DNA of 64,000 nt from positions 1,088,001-1,152,000 of the forward strand of contig JAXHMG010000003.1 of the NCBI GenBank assembly GCA_034521595.1. Direction: 5' to 3'. Under the pieces are notes generated by a model. It saw only the letters and a list, made by a program, of their open reading frames with translations. It was not told the DNA's origin and made no database searches. The stretch comes from Gemmatimonadota bacterium. Its GTDB lineage: Bacteria > Gemmatimonadota > Gemmatimonadetes > Longimicrobiales > Gaopeijiaceae. Below, one piece after another: positions 29,301 to 33,511 of the stretch (positions are counted from its first letter, which is position 1; the number at the start of each line of letters is the position of its first letter). Position numbers and translations under genes: made by a program.

Positions 29301-30854
29301 TCAGTGATCGGGCCAGAGCGGGGCATAAATCTCCGCGCCGGCTTCGATGCGGTTCGTCACGGGCATGTCCGCTCCGTGGCCCGCTACGGCGTGCAACCAC
29401 CGAAGCCGCAGCCTGAGGGGACGAGAGCCTTCGGCTCCGGTCGGGGTCGCGGTGTCGTAGACGAGGGTCAGGCCCATCTGGTGTCGCCTCGCGGGATCCC
29501 CCGACGGGAGAGTCCAGGAACGGTCATCGGTACCGGACGGCGAATCCGCCACCGCTGAGAACGCATCAGCTCCACGCGAGAAATACCGGTATACGCCTCC
29601 CACCGTCAGCGCGTCGGCGAGCCTCAGTGCCGGCTCCGCCTCCACGGCCCAGTACGAGCCCGGATCCCACACCAGGGCTACGCTGGATGCGGCCGGGGCG
29701 AGCGCCGAGCCCTCGACCACGCCCCTTCGCTCGAGCGTCCGTTGGTTCTGGGTCCCATAGAGCACGCCACCGTCGAAGGAAAAGCGGGAGCCGAATCGAG
29801 CCCGTGCCGCCAGACGCCCTTCGATGTCCCGCTGACCGTCGCCCGACCCCAGGTCCAGGGGCACGTCCGGATCGGGCGTCCGCCCGGTTCCCAAGCGCAA
29901 CAAGGCTCCCGCTTGGACCTCCAACGAAAATCCGGGCCGGGCGGCCAACGGGCGCCCCAGAGTGAGGACTCCGAACGAGGTTTTGAGCTCCACGTCCCCC
30001 CACGTCCAAAGGCTCGTTCGCGTACGGAGCGGCTCGGCGTAGCCGAGACGGTCGAACTGGGCCGGAAGCGTCTCGAGGTCGGCCTCGGTCGCGCGGGCGT
30101 TCGACAGCACCAGCGGGCCCGGGAGCCCGTCGAGTCCAGCGTCCCTCAAGTCCGAGTCGAGCGCGGTGATCCGGTCCGCGAGCTCGGTAGCGATCGACGA
30201 CCCCTCGAGTGGGAAGAAGGGAGTGGCATGGAACACGGTCGACAGGGTCTGGTCGAAGCGACCGGTGCGCTGCGCGAGGGCCGTCGCGTCCTCGCACGCC
30301 GGATCGCCACTCTCGCAGAGTCCGTCCGCACGACTCCACGCGGCCGTGGTCGCCGCCCTCAGGCCTCCGAGAAACATGTCCACGTCGTTCCGTGCGGTGA
30401 GGTACGGCGAGATCCCCAGGTCACCCGCGACGGTATCCGGCAGGAAGACCAAGTCCACGGCGGTGCGGGTCTTCACACGAGGCACGGACGCGCCGACCGT
30501 CCACCATTCGGTGATCCCGTAGTCGATCCCCAGGTCGATTTCGGTCACGTCGTGAGAGACGCGTCCCTCGACACCACCCATGGTGGGCTGGTAGTCCGGA
30601 GCCCCGGAGAGCTCCCTCAACCCTTCCGTCAGCGTGGACGCGCCCGGGAAGAGCTCGAGGGCCCTGTCGGAGGTGAGTGGCTGACCCAGCGAGACCCGGT
30701 CCGCCTCGCCGCTCGCCCCAAAGCGCTGGTCCCACGCGGTGAAGCTCGGCCAGGCGGAGAGGCGGAGGGTGCCGGCCGGAGCGAGTCGGTCGTCGATGAC
30801 CTGTGCGCTGCCCGTTGCCGCGAAGGCCGTGAGCAACAGAACGGTGCCCACCAT
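29301..30854 (-). CDS. Hypothetical secreted, probable outer-membrane beta-barrel protein
   Basis: Signal peptide ending ATGSA-Q; amphipathic beta-strand pattern; aromatic C-terminus; start uncertain. Confidence 0.55.
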   Translation of the reverse strand: MVGTVLLLTAFAATGSAQVIDDRLAPAGTLRLSAWPSFTAWDQRFGASGEADRVSLGQPLTSDRALELFPGASTLTEGLRELSGAPDYQPTMGGVEGRVSHDVTEIDLGIDYGITEWWTVGASVPRVKTRTAVDLVFLPDTVAGDLGISPYLTARNDVDMFLGGLRAATTAAWSRADGLCESGDPACEDATALAQRTGRFDQTLSTVFHATPFFPLEGSSIATELADRITALDSDLRDAGLDGLPGPLVLSNARATEADLETLPAQFDRLGYAEPLRTRTSLWTWGDVELKTSFGVLTLGRPLAARPGFSLEVQAGALLRLGTGRTPDPDVPLDLGSGDGQRDIEGRLAARARFGSRFSFDGGVLYGTQNQRTLERRGVVEGSALAPAASSVALVWDPGSYWAVEAEPALRLADALTVGGVYRYFSRGADAFSAVADSPSGTDDRSWTLPSGDPARRHQMGLTLVYDTATPTGAEGSRPLRLRLRWLHAVAGHGADMPVTNRIEAGAEIYAPLWPDH

Positions 30855-31126
30855 CACGCGCGCGAAGGCGGAAACGCTCCCTCGGACCACCTTGGCTCGT
30901 CTCGGGACAGCTGGCTCGGGTCGAAAGATGGGAATCGGCCGGACTCCACGGTCCGAAGAGGTCGTCGGTGGCTCGCAAGACATCGAGGAAGATAAGCCCC
31001 GAGGAAGATGGCTGGTACGGTCCGGATCGCCAGAGCCCAACGACCGCTGGTTTCCGCCTCGACGGGCCCATCTGGTCGTTGACCAGACCGGAGGCTTATT
31101 CTAGGTTCATGTCCGCTGTGAACATT

Positions 31127-31199
31127 GCGGGAATAGCTCAGTTGGTAGAGCACAACCTTGCCAAGGTTGGGGTCGCCGGTTCGAGTCCGGTTTCCCGCT
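31127..31199 (+). tRNA. tRNA-Gly(GCC)
   Basis: Full cloverleaf: acceptor GCGGGAA/TTCCCGC, anticodon arm CAACC-TTGCCAA-GGTTG, T loop TTCGAGT; CCA not encoded. Confidence 0.97.
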
Positions 31200-31248
31200 C
31201 TGTGGGCGAAGGGGGCGGCAGCCAGCGCTGTCCGCTCCCTTCGTCTTT

Positions 31249-31319
31249 GGCGCCGTGGCCAAGTGGTAAGGCAGAGGACTGCAAATCCTTTATCCCCGGT
31301 TCGAATCCGGGCGGCGCCT
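31249..31319 (+). tRNA. tRNA-Cys(GCA)
   Basis: Acceptor GGCGCCG/CGGCGCC, anticodon arm GAGGA-CTGCAAA-TCCTT, T arm CCCGG-TTCGAAT-CCGGG, discriminator T; CCA not encoded. Confidence 0.97.
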
Positions 31320-31725
31320 CTCCTGGAAAGGGCTTGCGAACGGAACGGTCTGCGAGGTCAGCAGGCTTCCACGTTCTGCCACGGTCGGGCGCCGCCCGGA
31401 GTCGAACCCCAGGTTCGAGCCGAGGCGCCCATGTGGTGTCCCGCGAAGCGGCCCGAACCGGGATTCGCCGAGACGAGCGAGGAGCGCCGAAGGCGCCCGC
31501 AGCTCCATCCGGGCGGCGCCTCTAGAAAGGTCTTGCGTGCTGAACAGTGTGGGAGGCCAGCAAGCTTCTGCGCTTCAGACAGGTCATGGCGCCGCCCGGA
31601 GTCGAACCCCAGGTTCGAGCCGAGGCGCCTGGACGGTGTACCGCGAAGCGGCCCGAGACGGAACTCGCCGAGACGAGCGAGGAGCGCCGCAAGGCGCCCG
31701 CAGCTCCATCCGGGCGGCGCCCTCT
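31305..31725 (+). repeat. Two ~200 bp tandem repeats anchored on the tRNA-Cys 3' end
   Basis: ATCCGGGCGGCGCC at 31305, 31507 and 31708; near-identical blocks 31388-31520 and 31588-31721, each bounded by the 13 bp inverted repeat GGCGCCGCCCGGA/TCCGGGCGGCGCC. Confidence 0.92.
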
Positions 31726-31956
31726 GAAGGATTCCCCACCTTCCGGAGGCAGCGTCGGGGCACAGAAGCCCATCGGCGGAGGTCTGAACGCAGGTTGCTG
31801 CAGTGTTATTCCTGCAGCCCGTGACGGATGCCGAGGAAGAGCGCTAGGTTACGTCATCCATACGAAGCTCGGGTTGGCGAGGGCTGCGAACGCCGGAGCC
31901 GGCTCGGATCTCCGCGATGATCTAGCGAACAAGCCTCTCGGACAGGGCTGCCGGAT

Positions 31957-32190
31957 GTGACCCAGAACCGGACTGCGAAGCTGGTGCGACGAGCCGTTAA
32001 AGCGGCTCCGTTCAGCGTAGCGAAATTGGCCATCGAGGCCCGCGTTTCGAGCGCGAGTGTCTACGCGTGGGCCAACGGGATCCGCAAACCGAATCCGGAG
32101 AAACTGCGAAGGCTCGCCGATGTGCTCGAGCGCCGCGGTGGAGAGCTCCAGAAGCTCGCTGAGGAACTGAGGGATGCAGCGGACGCATGA
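31957..32190 (+). CDS. Small Cro/XRE-type helix-turn-helix protein
   Basis: SVAKLAIEARVSSASVYAWANGIRKPNPEKLRRLADVL matches the HTH_3 pattern. Confidence 0.75.
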   Translation: MTQNRTAKLVRRAVKAAPFSVAKLAIEARVSSASVYAWANGIRKPNPEKLRRLADVLERRGGELQKLAEELRDAADA

Positions 32191-32248
32191 CGCGGCCACG
32201 CTTTCGACCCGCCTAACTCCTTTCGTCCGCCCCCGCTAGGGCTCACGC

Positions 32249-33511
32249 GTGCTATCCTCTTCCCTCCACCTCGACCTGGACCTGGACTCCTTCCCATGGC
32301 CCGCTGAGCGGCCAGTGGCGGTGCGTGTGCACCCCGTCGCGGAGCGAGCCCTCAAGGACGGGCATCCGTGGCTCTTCGAGGACAGCATCACCTCCATGAG
32401 CGCTTCGGCGGGTGCAGGGGACGTGGTGGTGGTGTTCGACCGGAAGAACCGATTCCTCGCGGCCGGCCTCCACGATCCGGAGAACCCGATCCGGGCGCGT
32501 ATGCTCGTGCACGGCGAGCCGGCCGAGATCGGTCCCGAGCTGTTTCGACACCGCATCGAGACGGCGCTCGGACGCCGGAGCGAGGTCGCGTCACGGGACA
32601 CGACGGCGTTCCGCGTTCTGAACGGGGAGAACGACGGGATGCCCGGACTCGTGGTCGACCTCTATGAGCGGACGTTGGTCATCGAGGTCTTCACGGTCGC
32701 CTGGCTCCCGAGGCTCCGCGAAATCGTCCCGGCCCTCCGTGACGTGCTCGCGCCCGAGCGCATCCTCCTGCTCGCCTCGAACCGCGTGGGGGAGAGCGAC
32801 CTTTGTCCTCCGGAGGCGGCGCACGGGAGCGTCTTGCTCGGCACGTCTCCGCAGGGAGGCGTGCCGTTTCTCGAAGCGGGGCTGCGATTCGAGGCACACC
32901 CGTTCGAAGGGCACAAGACGGGCTTCTACCTCGACCAGCGCGCGAACCGATGCCGCCTCGGGCGGCACGCTGCCGGAGCACGGATCCTCAACGTCTTCAG
33001 CTATACGGGGGGCTTCTCGCTGCATGCCGCCCGGGGCGGGGCGGCGGAGGTCGTGAGCGTCGACCGAGCGGAGGCCGTGCTAGCCCAGGCCCGACGGCAT
33101 TTCGACCTCAACCGGGGTGACCCGCAGGTCTCGGCCTGCCGGCACGAGACCGTGGAAGGGGATGCTTTCGAGGTGATGTCGAAGTTGGCGCGGTCCGGAG
33201 AGCGTTTCGATGTGGTCGTCGTGGACCCACCGTCGTTCGCGCGGGCCAAGCGACATCGGGACAAGGCCCTCGGAGCGTACCGCACGTTGACGGGCCTCGC
33301 CCTGCCGCTCACGCGTCCCGGTGGGCTCCTCGTGCAAGCCTCTTGCTCGTCCCGAATAGGGGCGGGCGAGTTCCACGACGCCGTCACCGGTGTGGCGGAA
33401 ACCGCCGGACGCCCGCTACAGGACCTCGAGCAGACCGGGCATCCGCCTGATCACCCCGTCTCGTTTCCCGAGGGCGCCTACCTCAAGTGCGTTTGGGGTC
33501 GGGTGCCGTGA
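32249..33511 (+). CDS. RlmI/RlmK-like rRNA methyltransferase (PUA plus SAM domain)
   Basis: GHPWLF, ENDGMPGLVVD, GHKTGFYLDQRANR, LNVFSYTGGFS, VVDPPSF, ASCS, YLK. Confidence 0.88.
   Translation: MLSSSLHLDLDLDSFPWPAERPVAVRVHPVAERALKDGHPWLFEDSITSMSASAGAGDVVVVFDRKNRFLAAGLHDPENPIRARMLVHGEPAEIGPELFRHRIETALGRRSEVASRDTTAFRVLNGENDGMPGLVVDLYERTLVIEVFTVAWLPRLREIVPALRDVLAPERILLLASNRVGESDLCPPEAAHGSVLLGTSPQGGVPFLEAGLRFEAHPFEGHKTGFYLDQRANRCRLGRHAAGARILNVFSYTGGFSLHAARGGAAEVVSVDRAEAVLAQARRHFDLNRGDPQVSACRHETVEGDAFEVMSKLARSGERFDVVVVDPPSFARAKRHRDKALGAYRTLTGLALPLTRPGGLLVQASCSSRIGAGEFHDAVTGVAETAGRPLQDLEQTGHPPDHPVSFPEGAYLKCVWGRVP

What the first reader, a model, noticed from the sequence alone, without database searches (positions are those of the whole stretch)
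31298..31725. tRNA-Cys-linked tandem repeat with sense and antisense copies of the tRNA 3' end and conserved RNA structure
Seen: the tRNA-Cys 3' end ATCCGGGCGGCGCC recurs at 202 and 201 nt spacing (31305, 31507, 31708). Each unit also has GGCGCCGCCCGGAGTCGAACC (31388, 31588), a 20/21 reverse complement of tRNA nt 31298-31318. Each unit can therefore close a ~133 nt domain with a 13 bp stem holding hairpins TCGAACC-CCA-GGTTCGA, GGCGCC-N5-GGTGT and GGAGC-GCC(GAA or GCAA)GGC-..GCTCC. Many differences between copies fall in loops. The antisense arm could instead pair with the tRNA in the precursor. Established: E. coli tyrT has tRNA-3'-end repeats giving a small RNA, and integrative elements duplicate tRNA 3' ends; an internal antisense copy is not part of those models as I know them. 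Inference: a non-autonomous tRNA-targeting mini-element that integrated twice, or a co-transcribed structured RNA affecting tRNA-Cys maturation.
Basis: partly seen in the sequence, partly recalled or inferred. Interest (0 to 1): 0.75.

Follow-up and report, generated by a model that had tools for sequence, protein, structure and literature searches.

The report
Folded insertion module in tRNA T-loops
The two repeats behind this cysteine tRNA gene are gene-less copies of a conserved, hairpin-forming DNA module that in Gemmatimonadota bacteria sits at one exact spot in copies of the ends of many tRNA genes, and it looks like an undescribed docking or insertion element.

Summary
tRNA-Cys (31249-31320) is followed by two ~201-nt units. 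Each ends in the tRNA's last 14-17 nt and holds a 21-nt antisense copy of the tRNA 3' part. It is not a one-off duplication. An ~88-100-nt core recurs behind seven tRNA genes and the tmRNA gene of this genome, and behind two more tRNA genes weakly. It was found in 10 of 40 relatives and in 62 CM-confirmed public contigs, 59 of them labelled Gemmatimonadota. Some full-length tRNA genes carry it inside the T-loop, and one carries it in the anticodon arm. Its helices covary strongly but are Watson-Crick only (G-U 21, A-C 20, against 28 and 3 in this genome's tRNA stems). Terminators often separate it from the tRNA. Occupancy of the tRNA-Cys site varies (8 of 19 relatives), and in other genomes the module closes integrase-less gene cassettes. 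Best reading (0.5): a DNA-level insertion or attachment module moved by an enzyme encoded elsewhere. A structured RNA is not excluded. It matched no Rfam family, and four literature searches found no description.

The parts
31127..31200 (+). tRNA-Gly(GCC), upstream neighbour. It gives context only and carries no module.
   Evidence: ARAGORN; Rfam tRNA 70.2 bits
31249..31320 (+). Intact host tRNA-Cys(GCA). The T-loop TTCGAAT is 31300-31306. The family's insertion or exchange point corresponds to 31304|31305.
31305..31321 (+). First copy of the repeated tRNA 3' end (T-loop A59 to the discriminator), inside the tRNA gene itself.
   Evidence: family D2
31322..31387 (+). Spacer of unit 1. It is locus-specific; no terminator-like site was found in it.
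31388..31408 (+). Antisense arm of unit 1: the reverse complement of tRNA 31298-31318 (20 of 21). Its first 13 nt pair with 31508-31520.
   Evidence: I1, I6; folds
31412..31418 (+). GGTTCGA, the sense copy of T-stem end plus the T-loop 5' half. It is the left junction of core 1 and pairs with 31402-31408.
31419..31506 (+). Core 1 (88 nt): GCCGAG; P1 31424-31427 with 31466-31469; a variable domain with a hairpin; the CGAGAC linker; P3 GAGC 31475-31478 with GCTC 31502-31505, enclosing GG/CC and hairpin 31484-31496.
   Evidence: CM R1 105.8 bits, E 1e-17; pair counts
31507..31523 (+). Second copy of the tRNA-Cys 3' end. It is the right flank of core 1 and the start of unit 2.
   Evidence: D2 (100%)
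31588..31608 (+). Antisense arm of unit 2.
   Evidence: I2, I7
31612..31618 (+). GGTTCGA, the left junction of core 2.
   Evidence: D1
31619..31707 (+). Core 2 (89 nt; one extra base in the terminal loop).
   Evidence: CM R1 104.4 bits
31708..31724 (+). Third copy of the tRNA-Cys 3' end (first 14 nt identical), the right flank of core 2. Unique sequence follows.
   Evidence: D2 (82% over 17 nt)

Best explanation
The two units are stacked, gene-less copies of a family of small DNA insertion or attachment units specific for tRNA and tmRNA genes. Each unit consists of a replacement copy of the host's 3' end from T-loop position 59 onward, often with the host's terminator. Next comes a locus-specific spacer, which in other genomes holds cargo genes. 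In many lineages an antisense copy of the host's T-arm and 3' end follows. Then comes GGTTCGA, and then a conserved 88-100-nt self-folding core that abuts the next copy of the 3' end. The core therefore sits exactly where T-loop nucleotides 58 and 59 would be joined.

Shown: the family, the fixed junction, the host-matched flanks, helix covariation that is Watson-Crick only, variable occupancy and copy number, and its position at the ends of integrase-less cassettes.

Inferred: the core acts as folded DNA. When it extrudes, it brings GGTTCGA and ATCC... together. Where the antisense arm is present, the fold rebuilds a double-stranded copy of the tRNA gene's positions 52-73, with the core branching at the exchange point. 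That would resemble integron attC sites or the folded attP of CTX phage. A recombinase or nuclease encoded elsewhere would then insert units one after another, while the tRNA stays intact. Arrays then grow and shrink by unequal crossing-over.
For: Family and host range. BLAST of one unit finds the core at four other loci, all just downstream of tRNA genes and on the same strand. CM R1 finds 21 matches in this genome, 15 of them below E 1e-4. These lie behind Cys, Pro-CGG, Pro-TGG, Pro-GGG, Ser-TGA, Arg-CCG and tmRNA; weaker matches lie behind Ser-GCT and Ser-GGA.

Junction and flanks. The junction is always GGTTCGA|core|(A/C)TCC plus the host 3' end. Of 99 junctions I could read among 115 matches, 91 fit one of 11 host classes.

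Primary insertions. Full-length tRNA genes carry the core in the T-loop: G003 tRNA-Ser, two tRNA-Pro copies in L134 and three tRNAs in L064. Two tRNA-Pro-GGG copies carry it at CCTGA|ATGG of the anticodon arm. Core-to-core tandems occur in L035 and L143.

Structure. 92.6% of cells are paired, against 26-41% when partners are slid, and 19 of 20 pairs show double changes (the alignment was fitted to the model). G-U is 21 and A-C is 20 of 1631 cells; in P1 plus P3 the counts are 7 and 9 of 1357. tRNA stems of the same genome give 28 and 3 of 540 (Fisher P 7e-4). At tmRNA loci the arm places A opposite U70 and T opposite the discriminator. It is therefore a complement of the 3' strand, not the tmRNA's own 5' strand.

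Turnover. The tRNA-Cys site is occupied in 8 of 19 relatives. Within one genus it holds two core subtypes and 1-3 copies. Host labels need 36 changes on the tree of 88 cores (minimum 11; shuffled mean 59.7). The distribution is patchy: 10 of 40 relatives and 1 of 150 genomes sampled across the phylum.

Cassettes. The core plus tRNA 3' end closes a 5.6-kb TetR/MMPL/LolA segment, a 2.3-kb AAA_14-DUF4143 segment and a 4.4-kb SMC-like segment. None of these encodes a recombinase.
Against: No enzyme is identified. There is no integrase near this locus, and none of the genome's four tyrosine recombinases lies next to a host tRNA. Close homologues of the one integrase-like gene do not track the element.

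The antisense arm that the folded-duplex idea needs is missing at Ser hosts (own arm better than a swapped one in 11 of 21) and Arg hosts (1 of 9). Overall the arm-flank duplex is only about 1.9 kcal/mol better than with swapped flanks, and better in 54 of 91.

The two core junctions share at most 1 nt. A classical tyrosine or serine recombinase overlap at the core boundaries is therefore not seen.

No excised circle or empty-site pair from one population was observed. The only near-identical DNA run gave fragmented contigs.

The same tRNA species are hosts in different genera, so long vertical retention, and hence a cellular function, is also possible.

The G-U argument rests on a model-fitted alignment.
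Confidence: 0.5

Rival explanations
1. A structured RNA. The unit is transcribed by read-through from the tRNA and folds into the closing stem plus core. It is then cut out by tRNA-processing enzymes and acts as a small RNA, as a decoy for enzymes that recognise tRNA ends, or, in interrupted tRNA genes, as an intron-like insert.
For: The unit always has the orientation of the tRNA. The helices covary strongly, including the long-range P1. Single-stranded motifs (GCCGAG, CGAGAC, GAGGA) are conserved across orders. The unit ends exactly like a tRNA 3' end. In this window no terminator lies between the tRNA and the units. The insert lies after the five-nucleotide T-loop motif, a place where, to my recollection, T-loop motifs tolerate insertions. 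The E. coli tyrT/rtT case is a precedent (passage in bioRxiv 10.1101/2024.07.17.603846).
Against: G-U pairs are no more frequent than A-C mismatches (21 against 20), whereas the same genome's tRNA stems give 28 against 3. Strong terminator-like hairpins with T runs lie between gene and module at the Arg and tmRNA loci here and at tRNA-Cys in relatives (sequences read). The arm pairs with T-loop and discriminator bases, so the fold copies the gene duplex and not a tRNA shape. Most copies have no 5' exon, so splicing could not yield a tRNA. No Rfam family matched at E up to 1. No transcript evidence could be obtained.
Confidence: 0.2
2. Passive scars. The units are what is left after classical tyrosine-integrase islands integrated repeatedly at tRNA genes and lost their cargo and integrase. 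The core is merely the conserved arm (protein-binding) region of their attachment site.
For: Direct repeats of the tRNA 3' end starting in the T-loop are the signature of such islands (own knowledge of integrase sublocation classes). Cassettes bounded by tRNA fragments exist in relatives. Islands integrated at the anticodon loop of tRNA-Arg are seen in G003, G005 and G015.
Against: GGTTCGA and ATCC are split by the core instead of forming an intact T-arm next to an arm region. The same core serves at least 11 host classes. Helix covariation is not expected of protein-binding arm sites. Full-length tRNA genes are interrupted at exactly the same nucleotide. Tandem gene-less units of 142-325 nt recur in many genomes. 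None of the three cassettes examined nor this locus has an integrase.
Confidence: 0.15
3. A miniature derivative of a single-strand DNA transposon of the IS200/IS605 type (a palindrome-associated element). It inserts 3' of a short motif (YGA) exposed in a hairpin loop, without target duplication, and is moved by a Y1 HUH transposase in trans. Its core plus 3' flank would have the layout of a TnpB guide RNA.
For: Insertion is precise, with no duplication at the core boundaries, and always 3' of TTCGA, TTTGA or CCTGA. Orientation is fixed. The ends are hairpin-rich with Watson-Crick-only covariation. One core can sit directly after the end of another. The scaffold-then-flank layout resembles a right-end guide RNA (own knowledge).
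Against: The Y1 transposase family PF01797 was found in 0 of 6 element-bearing genomes. TnpB (PF07282) was found in 1 of 6, and that genome's TnpB loci are not near any core. The intact tRNA next to each unit and the repeated trailer are not produced by such transposition.
Confidence: 0.1
4. A one-off local tandem duplication downstream of tRNA-Cys, without wider meaning.
For: Two adjacent units are 91% identical.
Against: The core is present at eight other loci of this genome and in dozens of other genomes, with host-specific flanks.
Confidence: 0.01

Closest known systems
Integrative elements that target tRNA/tmRNA genes in the T-loop and carry a replacement 3' end, including tandem island arrays such as the ssrA islands of Dehalococcoides (named in earlier scan notes; PMC3146451, not read by me)
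   Same: Direct repeats of the gene's 3' end begin inside the T-loop. The tRNA stays intact. Units stack head to tail. Some units carry cargo genes.
   Different: The units here are gene-less and 142-325 nt long. Neither the units nor the cassettes examined hold an integrase. A conserved self-folding core splits GGTTCGA from ATCC at the junction. One core family serves at least 11 host classes.
Integron attC sites and the folded single-strand attP of CTX phage (own knowledge)
   Same: These are imperfect palindromes of about 60-140 nt whose structure is conserved more than their sequence. They sit at the end of each cassette and are recombined by an enzyme encoded elsewhere. Junctions are exact, without long overlaps. 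Here the arms can rebuild a duplex copy of the target.
   Different: No IntI-type integrase or platform was identified. The target is a tRNA gene. The R/L box consensus is not present. The antisense arm is missing at Ser and Arg hosts. No experiment shows single-strand recombination.
E. coli tyrT operon repeats and rtT RNA (Rfam RF00391)
   Same: Tandem units of about 180-200 nt lie downstream of a tRNA gene, each ending in the tRNA's 3' end.
   Different: No sequence or structure match appeared in the Rfam scan. The tyrT repeats are one locus of one lineage. Here a family spans many tRNA species and genomes, has a fixed T-loop junction, and also interrupts tRNA genes.
IS200/IS605 transposons and their miniature palindromic derivatives
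   Same: Insertion is precise, orientation-specific and 3' of a short motif, without target duplication. The ends are hairpin-rich.
   Different: No Y1 transposase was found in the 6 genomes searched. The units carry host 3'-end copies and trailers.
[quoted passage not shown]
   Same: An insert lies at an exact position in a tRNA or tmRNA loop, including the T-loop.
   Different: The core is only about 90-100 nt. It matched no Rfam family other than tRNA, so no group I intron model. It has no terminal G and no U at -1. Most copies lack a 5' exon.

Membership tests
tRNA-targeting integrase island / att scar | Direct repeats of the tRNA 3' end flank the inserted DNA | tested here: met
   The repeat is 14-17 nt at 31305, 31507 and 31708. 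The same holds at the other loci.
tRNA-targeting integrase island / att scar | A tyrosine or serine recombinase gene lies inside or beside the element | tested here: not met
   Pfam scan of the 7 flanking ORFs gave HTH, methyltransferase, aminotransferase, oxidase and RecN-like matches. The genome's 4 PF00589 matches are not next to host tRNAs. The three cassettes hold no recombinase.
tRNA-targeting integrase island / att scar | The same overlap sequence is present at both junctions of the inserted DNA | tested here: inconclusive
   If the unit is taken as 3' end to 3' end, the repeat itself could hold the overlap. If the core is taken as the insert, the junctions GGTTCGA|GCCGAG and GCTC(C/A)|ATCC share at most 1 nt.
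Integron attC / folded single-strand att site | An imperfect palindrome with conserved structure and variable sequence | tested here: met
   19 of 20 pairs show double changes and 92.6% of cells are paired. Pairs are Watson-Crick only. Both DNA strands fold with z about -4.4 to -5.2.
Integron attC / folded single-strand att site | The site lies at the 3' end of promoter-less gene cassettes stacked in one orientation | tested here: inconclusive
   Three cassettes are closed by the core plus a tRNA 3' end. In this genome all units are gene-less.
Integron attC / folded single-strand att site | A dedicated integrase (IntI type) lies beside the primary site, with R/L box consensus GTTRRRY | tested here: not met
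   No recombinase lies beside tRNA-Cys. GTTCGAG does not fit GTTRRRY (reading).
IS200/IS605 miniature element | A Y1 HUH transposase (PF01797) is present in the genome | tested here: not met
   0 of 6 genomes. The control genomes gave hits.
IS200/IS605 miniature element | Insertion 3' of a fixed 4-5-nt motif without target duplication | tested here: met
   The left flank is TTCGA, TTTGA or CCTGA, and the core boundaries are exact.
rtT RNA (RF00391) and any other Rfam 15 family | A match to the covariance model | tested here: not met
   cmscan of 30500-32500 at E up to 1 returned only the two tRNAs above gathering score.
Group I intron in tRNA/tmRNA | A catalytic core, U at -1 and a terminal G | tested here: not met
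   No Rfam intron match. The base at -1 is A, and the last core base is C or A.
MITE with terminal inverted repeats | Terminal inverted repeats conserved among copies, plus a short target duplication | tested here: not met
   The inverted arms change with the host tRNA. There is no short duplication at the core ends.

The most novel reading that the evidence does not exclude
Gemmatimonadota have a tRNA-anchored, integron-like cassette system. A self-folding DNA module marks the end of each unit, whether empty or gene-carrying. As single-stranded or extruded DNA it rebuilds a duplex copy of the tRNA gene's T-loop-to-3'-end segment, with the core branching at nucleotide 58|59. A recombinase encoded elsewhere, possibly a housekeeping one, stacks and shuffles the units at many different tRNA and tmRNA genes without ever breaking the gene.
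Probability: 0.25. Interest if true: 0.9.

Novelty: new variant of a known kind. Interest (0 to 1): 0.74.

Why it matters
tRNA genes are the classical landing sites of mobile DNA. The known players bring their own integrase and leave a simple repeat. Here a tiny, protein-less, structure-conserved module marks one exact nucleotide of the T-loop in at least 11 host classes. It stacks in arrays, interrupts spare tRNA genes, and closes integrase-less gene cassettes, some of which look defence-like. If it is a folded-DNA recombination site, it would be a second integron-like way of collecting genes, anchored at tRNA genes, and would explain the integrase-less island stacks noted repeatedly in this phylum. 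If it is an RNA, it would be a new phylum-wide RNA family tied to tRNA ends. Either way, annotation pipelines currently miss it, and ARAGORN forces calls on the interrupted tRNA copies.

Tried and rejected
- Tandem Repeats Finder found nothing at the locus. The repeats were shown by the repeat finder and by alignment instead.
- Rfam at E up to 1 returned only the tRNAs.
- Expression: one run holds half of the stretch's words. It is DNA and possibly the source sample. Six RNA runs held small shares. Laying four runs showed only fragmented DNA unitigs over the repeats and RNA-library contigs over the tRNA parts, so nothing can be said about transcription.
- Phage carriage: four pattern matches in viral contigs, none confirmed by the model.
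- Candidate enzymes: TnpB in 0 of 1 and 1 of 5 genomes, Y1 transposase in 0 of 6, reverse transcriptase in 1 of 5, IS110-type transposase in 4 of 5, absent from G003, which has 16 cores. The single IS110 copy of this genome looks frameshifted and shows no core.
- The 399-aa integrase-like gene at contig 3:34262-35455 has close homologues in G001 and G002, where BLAST found no core, and none in G005, which has the core. There is no link.
- The promoter scan found no sigma-70-like site in 30900-32000.
- A first test of arm complementarity by exact matching was confounded by the GGGCGCCC palindrome of tRNA-Pro and by sense copies from the preceding unit. It was replaced by the tests.
- A retroposition model (5'-truncated cDNA copies) was considered and dropped. 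Left-flank lengths are not a graded series: 73 of the 81 comparable copies end at the base of the T-stem (6-12 nt), and RT is absent from 4 of 5 genomes.
- Literature: four full-text searches returned no paper on such an element. One search failed on a syntax error. Supplements were not consulted.

Full report
**What is in the window.** tRNA-Gly (31127-31200) and tRNA-Cys (31249-31320) are followed by two tandem units, 31305-31506 and 31507-31707. A third copy of the tRNA's last 14-17 nt lies at 31708-31724. The units are 91% identical. Each holds a 21-nt stretch (31388-31408, 31588-31608) that is the reverse complement of tRNA 31298-31318 in 20 of 21 positions. Its first 13 nt pair perfectly with the next copy of the tRNA 3' end. 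That stem closes the minimum-energy fold of each unit, both as RNA and as DNA on either strand.

**It is a family, and the arms are swapped per host.** BLAST of one unit against the window's own genome (3.49 Mb, 3 contigs) found the last ~115 nt at four other loci. All lie directly downstream of tRNA genes and on the same strand (ARAGORN found 49 tRNAs and one tmRNA):
- one copy behind tRNA-Pro(TGG),
- four behind tRNA-Pro(CGG),
- three behind tRNA-Ser(TGA),
- one behind tRNA-Arg(CCG).

In each case the conserved part begins after GGTTCGA and ends just before ATCC plus that host's own 3' end. I built a covariance model (R1) from 25 copies. It finds 21 matches in the genome, 15 of them below E 1e-4. 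New hosts are tRNA-Pro(GGG) with three copies and the tmRNA gene, where the flank is the tmRNA's own CTCC... end. Weaker matches lie behind tRNA-Ser(GCT) and tRNA-Ser(GGA).

**Distribution.**
- BLAST found the core in 10 of 40 related genomes.
- The model confirmed 54 of the first 100 loci and 8 of the other 18. By record title, 59 of these 62 are Gemmatimonadota: Longimicrobiales, Gemmatimonadales and Gemmatimonadaceae. The other three are metagenome bins labelled otherwise.
- None of four viral pattern matches was confirmed.
- In an even sample of the phylum, only 1 of 150 further genomes matched, under stricter filters. The family is therefore phylum-wide but patchy.

**The junction is exact.** I could read 99 junctions among 115 matches. 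Of these, 91 have a right flank that fits one of 11 host classes: Pro-CGG/TGG 26, Pro-GGG 13, Arg-CCG 12, Cys 11, Ser-GCT 6, Ser-TGA 5, Ser-GGA 5, Ser-CGA 4, tmRNA 3, Gly-CCC 2 and an unidentified host 4. On the left, identity to the host tRNA usually ends at the base of the T-stem: 6-12 nt in 73 of the 81 copies that could be compared.

Some copies sit inside complete tRNA genes:
- a tRNA-Ser(TGA) in G003, next to an intact copy;
- two tRNA-Pro(CGG) copies ahead of an intact one in L134;
- three tRNAs of a tRNA array in a Longimicrobiales chromosome, with no intact twin beside them.

Two tRNA-Pro(GGG) copies in G003 carry the core in the anticodon arm, at CCTGA|ATGG. The common target therefore reads YGA^(A/C)T in a stem-loop. 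Two cores can also abut directly.

**Structure.** The consensus is GCCGAG, then P1 (4 bp) closing a variable domain with a hairpin, then CGAGAC, then P3 (GAGC/GCTC, GA, GG/CC, a 5-bp hairpin, GNA). On 98 distinct sequences, 92.6% of cells pair, against 26-41% when partners are slid by 1-3 columns. 19 of 20 pairs show changes on both sides. That alignment was fitted to the model, which favours it.

The pairs are almost purely Watson-Crick. G-U is 21 and A-C is 20 of 1631 cells; in the well-aligned P1 and P3 the counts are 7 and 9 of 1357. Acceptor and T stems of 45 of this genome's 49 tRNAs give 28 G-U and 3 A-C of 540 (Fisher P 7e-4). A second core subtype, seen at tRNA-Cys in G003, G005 and G006, keeps P3 but has another P1 and other linkers.

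**The antisense arm.** A host-specific complement of positions 59-73 lies upstream of the core at these hosts (own arm better than a swapped one):
- Cys, 10 of 10
- Pro, 29 of 31 (partly confounded by a palindrome in that tRNA)
- Gly, 2 of 2
- the unidentified host, 3 of 3
- tmRNA, 2 of 3

It is not present at Ser (11 of 21) or Arg (1 of 9). At three tmRNA loci the arm has A opposite U70, where the tmRNA's own 5' strand has G, and T opposite the discriminator. The arm is thus a complement of the 3' strand.

Here the order is antisense (72 to 52), CCA, sense 52-58, core, sense 59-73. Folded, this is a continuous duplex copy of the gene's positions 52-72, with the core branching at 58|59. It is not a tRNA-like shape, because T-loop bases are paired.

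**Turnover and context.** I compared the orthologous tRNA-Gly/tRNA-Cys locus in 19 genomes. Eight carry the module: one or two full copies in six, a short remnant in one, and one cut by a contig end. Eleven show no downstream copy of the tRNA end within 520 nt, although two of them keep an arm-like remnant. Within the window's genus the site holds subtype A (G000, G004) or subtype B (G003, G005, G006), in one to three copies.

A tree of 88 cores needs 36 host changes (minimum 11; shuffled mean 59.7). Starred clades mix hosts, for example this genome's Pro copies with Ser-CGA and Pro-GGG copies of other genomes, while the tmRNA copies of three genomes group weakly. With 97 columns the tree is coarse.

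At several loci a strong terminator-like hairpin with a T run lies between the gene and the module, and is repeated after the module (read). None lies between tRNA-Cys and the units here.

In other genomes the core plus tRNA end closes gene-carrying segments without any recombinase:
- 5.6 kb with TetR, MMPL and LolA-like genes,
- 2.3 kb with an AAA_14-DUF4143 ATPase,
- 4.4 kb with an SMC-like protein and an unknown one.

Earlier notes of this scan describe integrase-less cassette stacks at tRNA-Pro and tRNA-Arg of other Gemmatimonadota, separated by a ~126-nt, ~190-nt or ~210-nt module. I could not compare sequences, so I treat this as a lead that my three cases agree with. Notes from other phyla describe comparable tiny T-loop inserts.

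**No enzyme found.** The flanks of the window locus encode a RecN-like ATPase, an HTH protein, a PUA-SAM methyltransferase, an aminotransferase and an oxidase. Family searches gave:
- Y1 transposase in 0 of 6 genomes,
- TnpB in 1 of 6, and not near cores,
- reverse transcriptase in 1 of 5,
- IS110-type transposase in 4 of 5.

The four tyrosine recombinases of this genome are not next to host tRNAs. The one integrase-like gene does not co-vary with the element.

**Reading.** The data fit best a DNA-level insertion or attachment module (confidence 0.5):
- an exact target in a stem-loop;
- host-matched replacement 3' ends, often with terminators, that keep the tRNA working;
- stacking in arrays;
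- variable occupancy;
- Watson-Crick-only structure;
- arms that copy the gene duplex;
- association with cassettes.

That it works as folded DNA, like integron attC sites or the CTX phage attP, is inference. The missing arms at Ser and Arg hosts and the missing enzyme count against it.

The rivals are a structured RNA (0.2), passive scars of ordinary integrase islands (0.15), and an IS200/IS605-like miniature element (0.1). A one-off duplication is refuted.

**Known or new.** No Rfam 15 family matched. Four full-text searches gave nothing on such an element. From the Williams-group preprint 10.1101/2020.01.27.920355 I read the abstract and passages, which mention group I introns in the tmRNA T-loop. 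From bioRxiv 10.1101/2024.07.17.603846 I read one passage on tyrT/rtT. Supplements were closed and not needed. I file it as a new variant of the tRNA-targeting integrative-element kind. The bolder integron-like reading gets 0.25.

Noticed in passing
G000 contig 1: 50619-54209 and 57741-58708: A 117-kb contig carries an array of 17 tRNA genes on one strand. Core modules lie behind Pro-CGG (4 copies), Ser-GCT and Ser-GGA (weak), and behind a nearby Pro-GGG (3 copies, about 325-nt spacing).
   Followed up: partly
L064: 4700-5900 (Longimicrobiales chromosome OZ250165.1): A compact array of 17 ARAGORN calls includes three tRNA genes with the core inside the T-loop and no intact twin beside them. 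ARAGORN still calls them as tRNAs (Asn-GTT and Pro-CGG), and one call has an unreadable anticodon. It could be a mobile tRNA array.
   Followed up: partly
L205 (G003 contig 1: 915842-916127): Two partial tRNA-Pro(GGG) copies lie upstream of the intact gene, each with its own copy of the leader. They carry the core in the anticodon arm (CCTGA|ATGG) instead of the T-loop.
   Followed up: partly
G000 contig 3: 1310000-1310101 (minus strand), behind tRNA-Pro(TGG): One unit has the arm and the tRNA 3' end but only CTCTC where the core should be (CCGGAT-CTCTC-ATCCGG hairpin). It is either a deletion derivative or a never-filled site.
   Followed up: no
G000 contig 3: 2459600-2459715 (minus strand): The second unit behind tRNA-Arg(CCG) has a divergent, shorter core with the same left junction. 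The array ends in a diverged copy of the tRNA's terminator.
   Followed up: no
L039 and L036 (G003 contig 6, G005 contig 12); L203 (G015): Here the 5' part of tRNA-Arg(CCG) is replaced from the anticodon loop onward, or a displaced 3' half lies 5.6 kb away. These are islands integrated at the anticodon loop of the same tRNA that also carries core modules.
   Followed up: partly
window 31261-31322, run X16 record 12: A 173-nt contig from a sediment metatranscriptome library matches the tRNA-Cys 3' part. About 66 nt further on it matches the same part again in inverted orientation. That is the tRNA-plus-antisense-arm layout in some relative. DNA carry-over cannot be excluded.
   Followed up: no
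L142, L076, L096: Three model-positive contigs belong to bins labelled Solirubrobacterales, Acidimicrobiales and Planctomycetota. Two are under 3 kb. They could be binning errors or occurrences outside the phylum.
   Followed up: no
G000 contig 3: 1510990-1512125: This is the genome's single IS110-family transposase match. The reading frame appears split, with a 266-aa ORF where the search tool reports a 403-aa open frame.
   Followed up: no
window 31957-32190 and 32249-33511: A 77-aa HTH (Xre-like) ORF and a PUA-SAM methyltransferase (RlmI-like by Pfam) lie directly downstream of the array. They look like housekeeping genes and not part of the element.
   Followed up: partly
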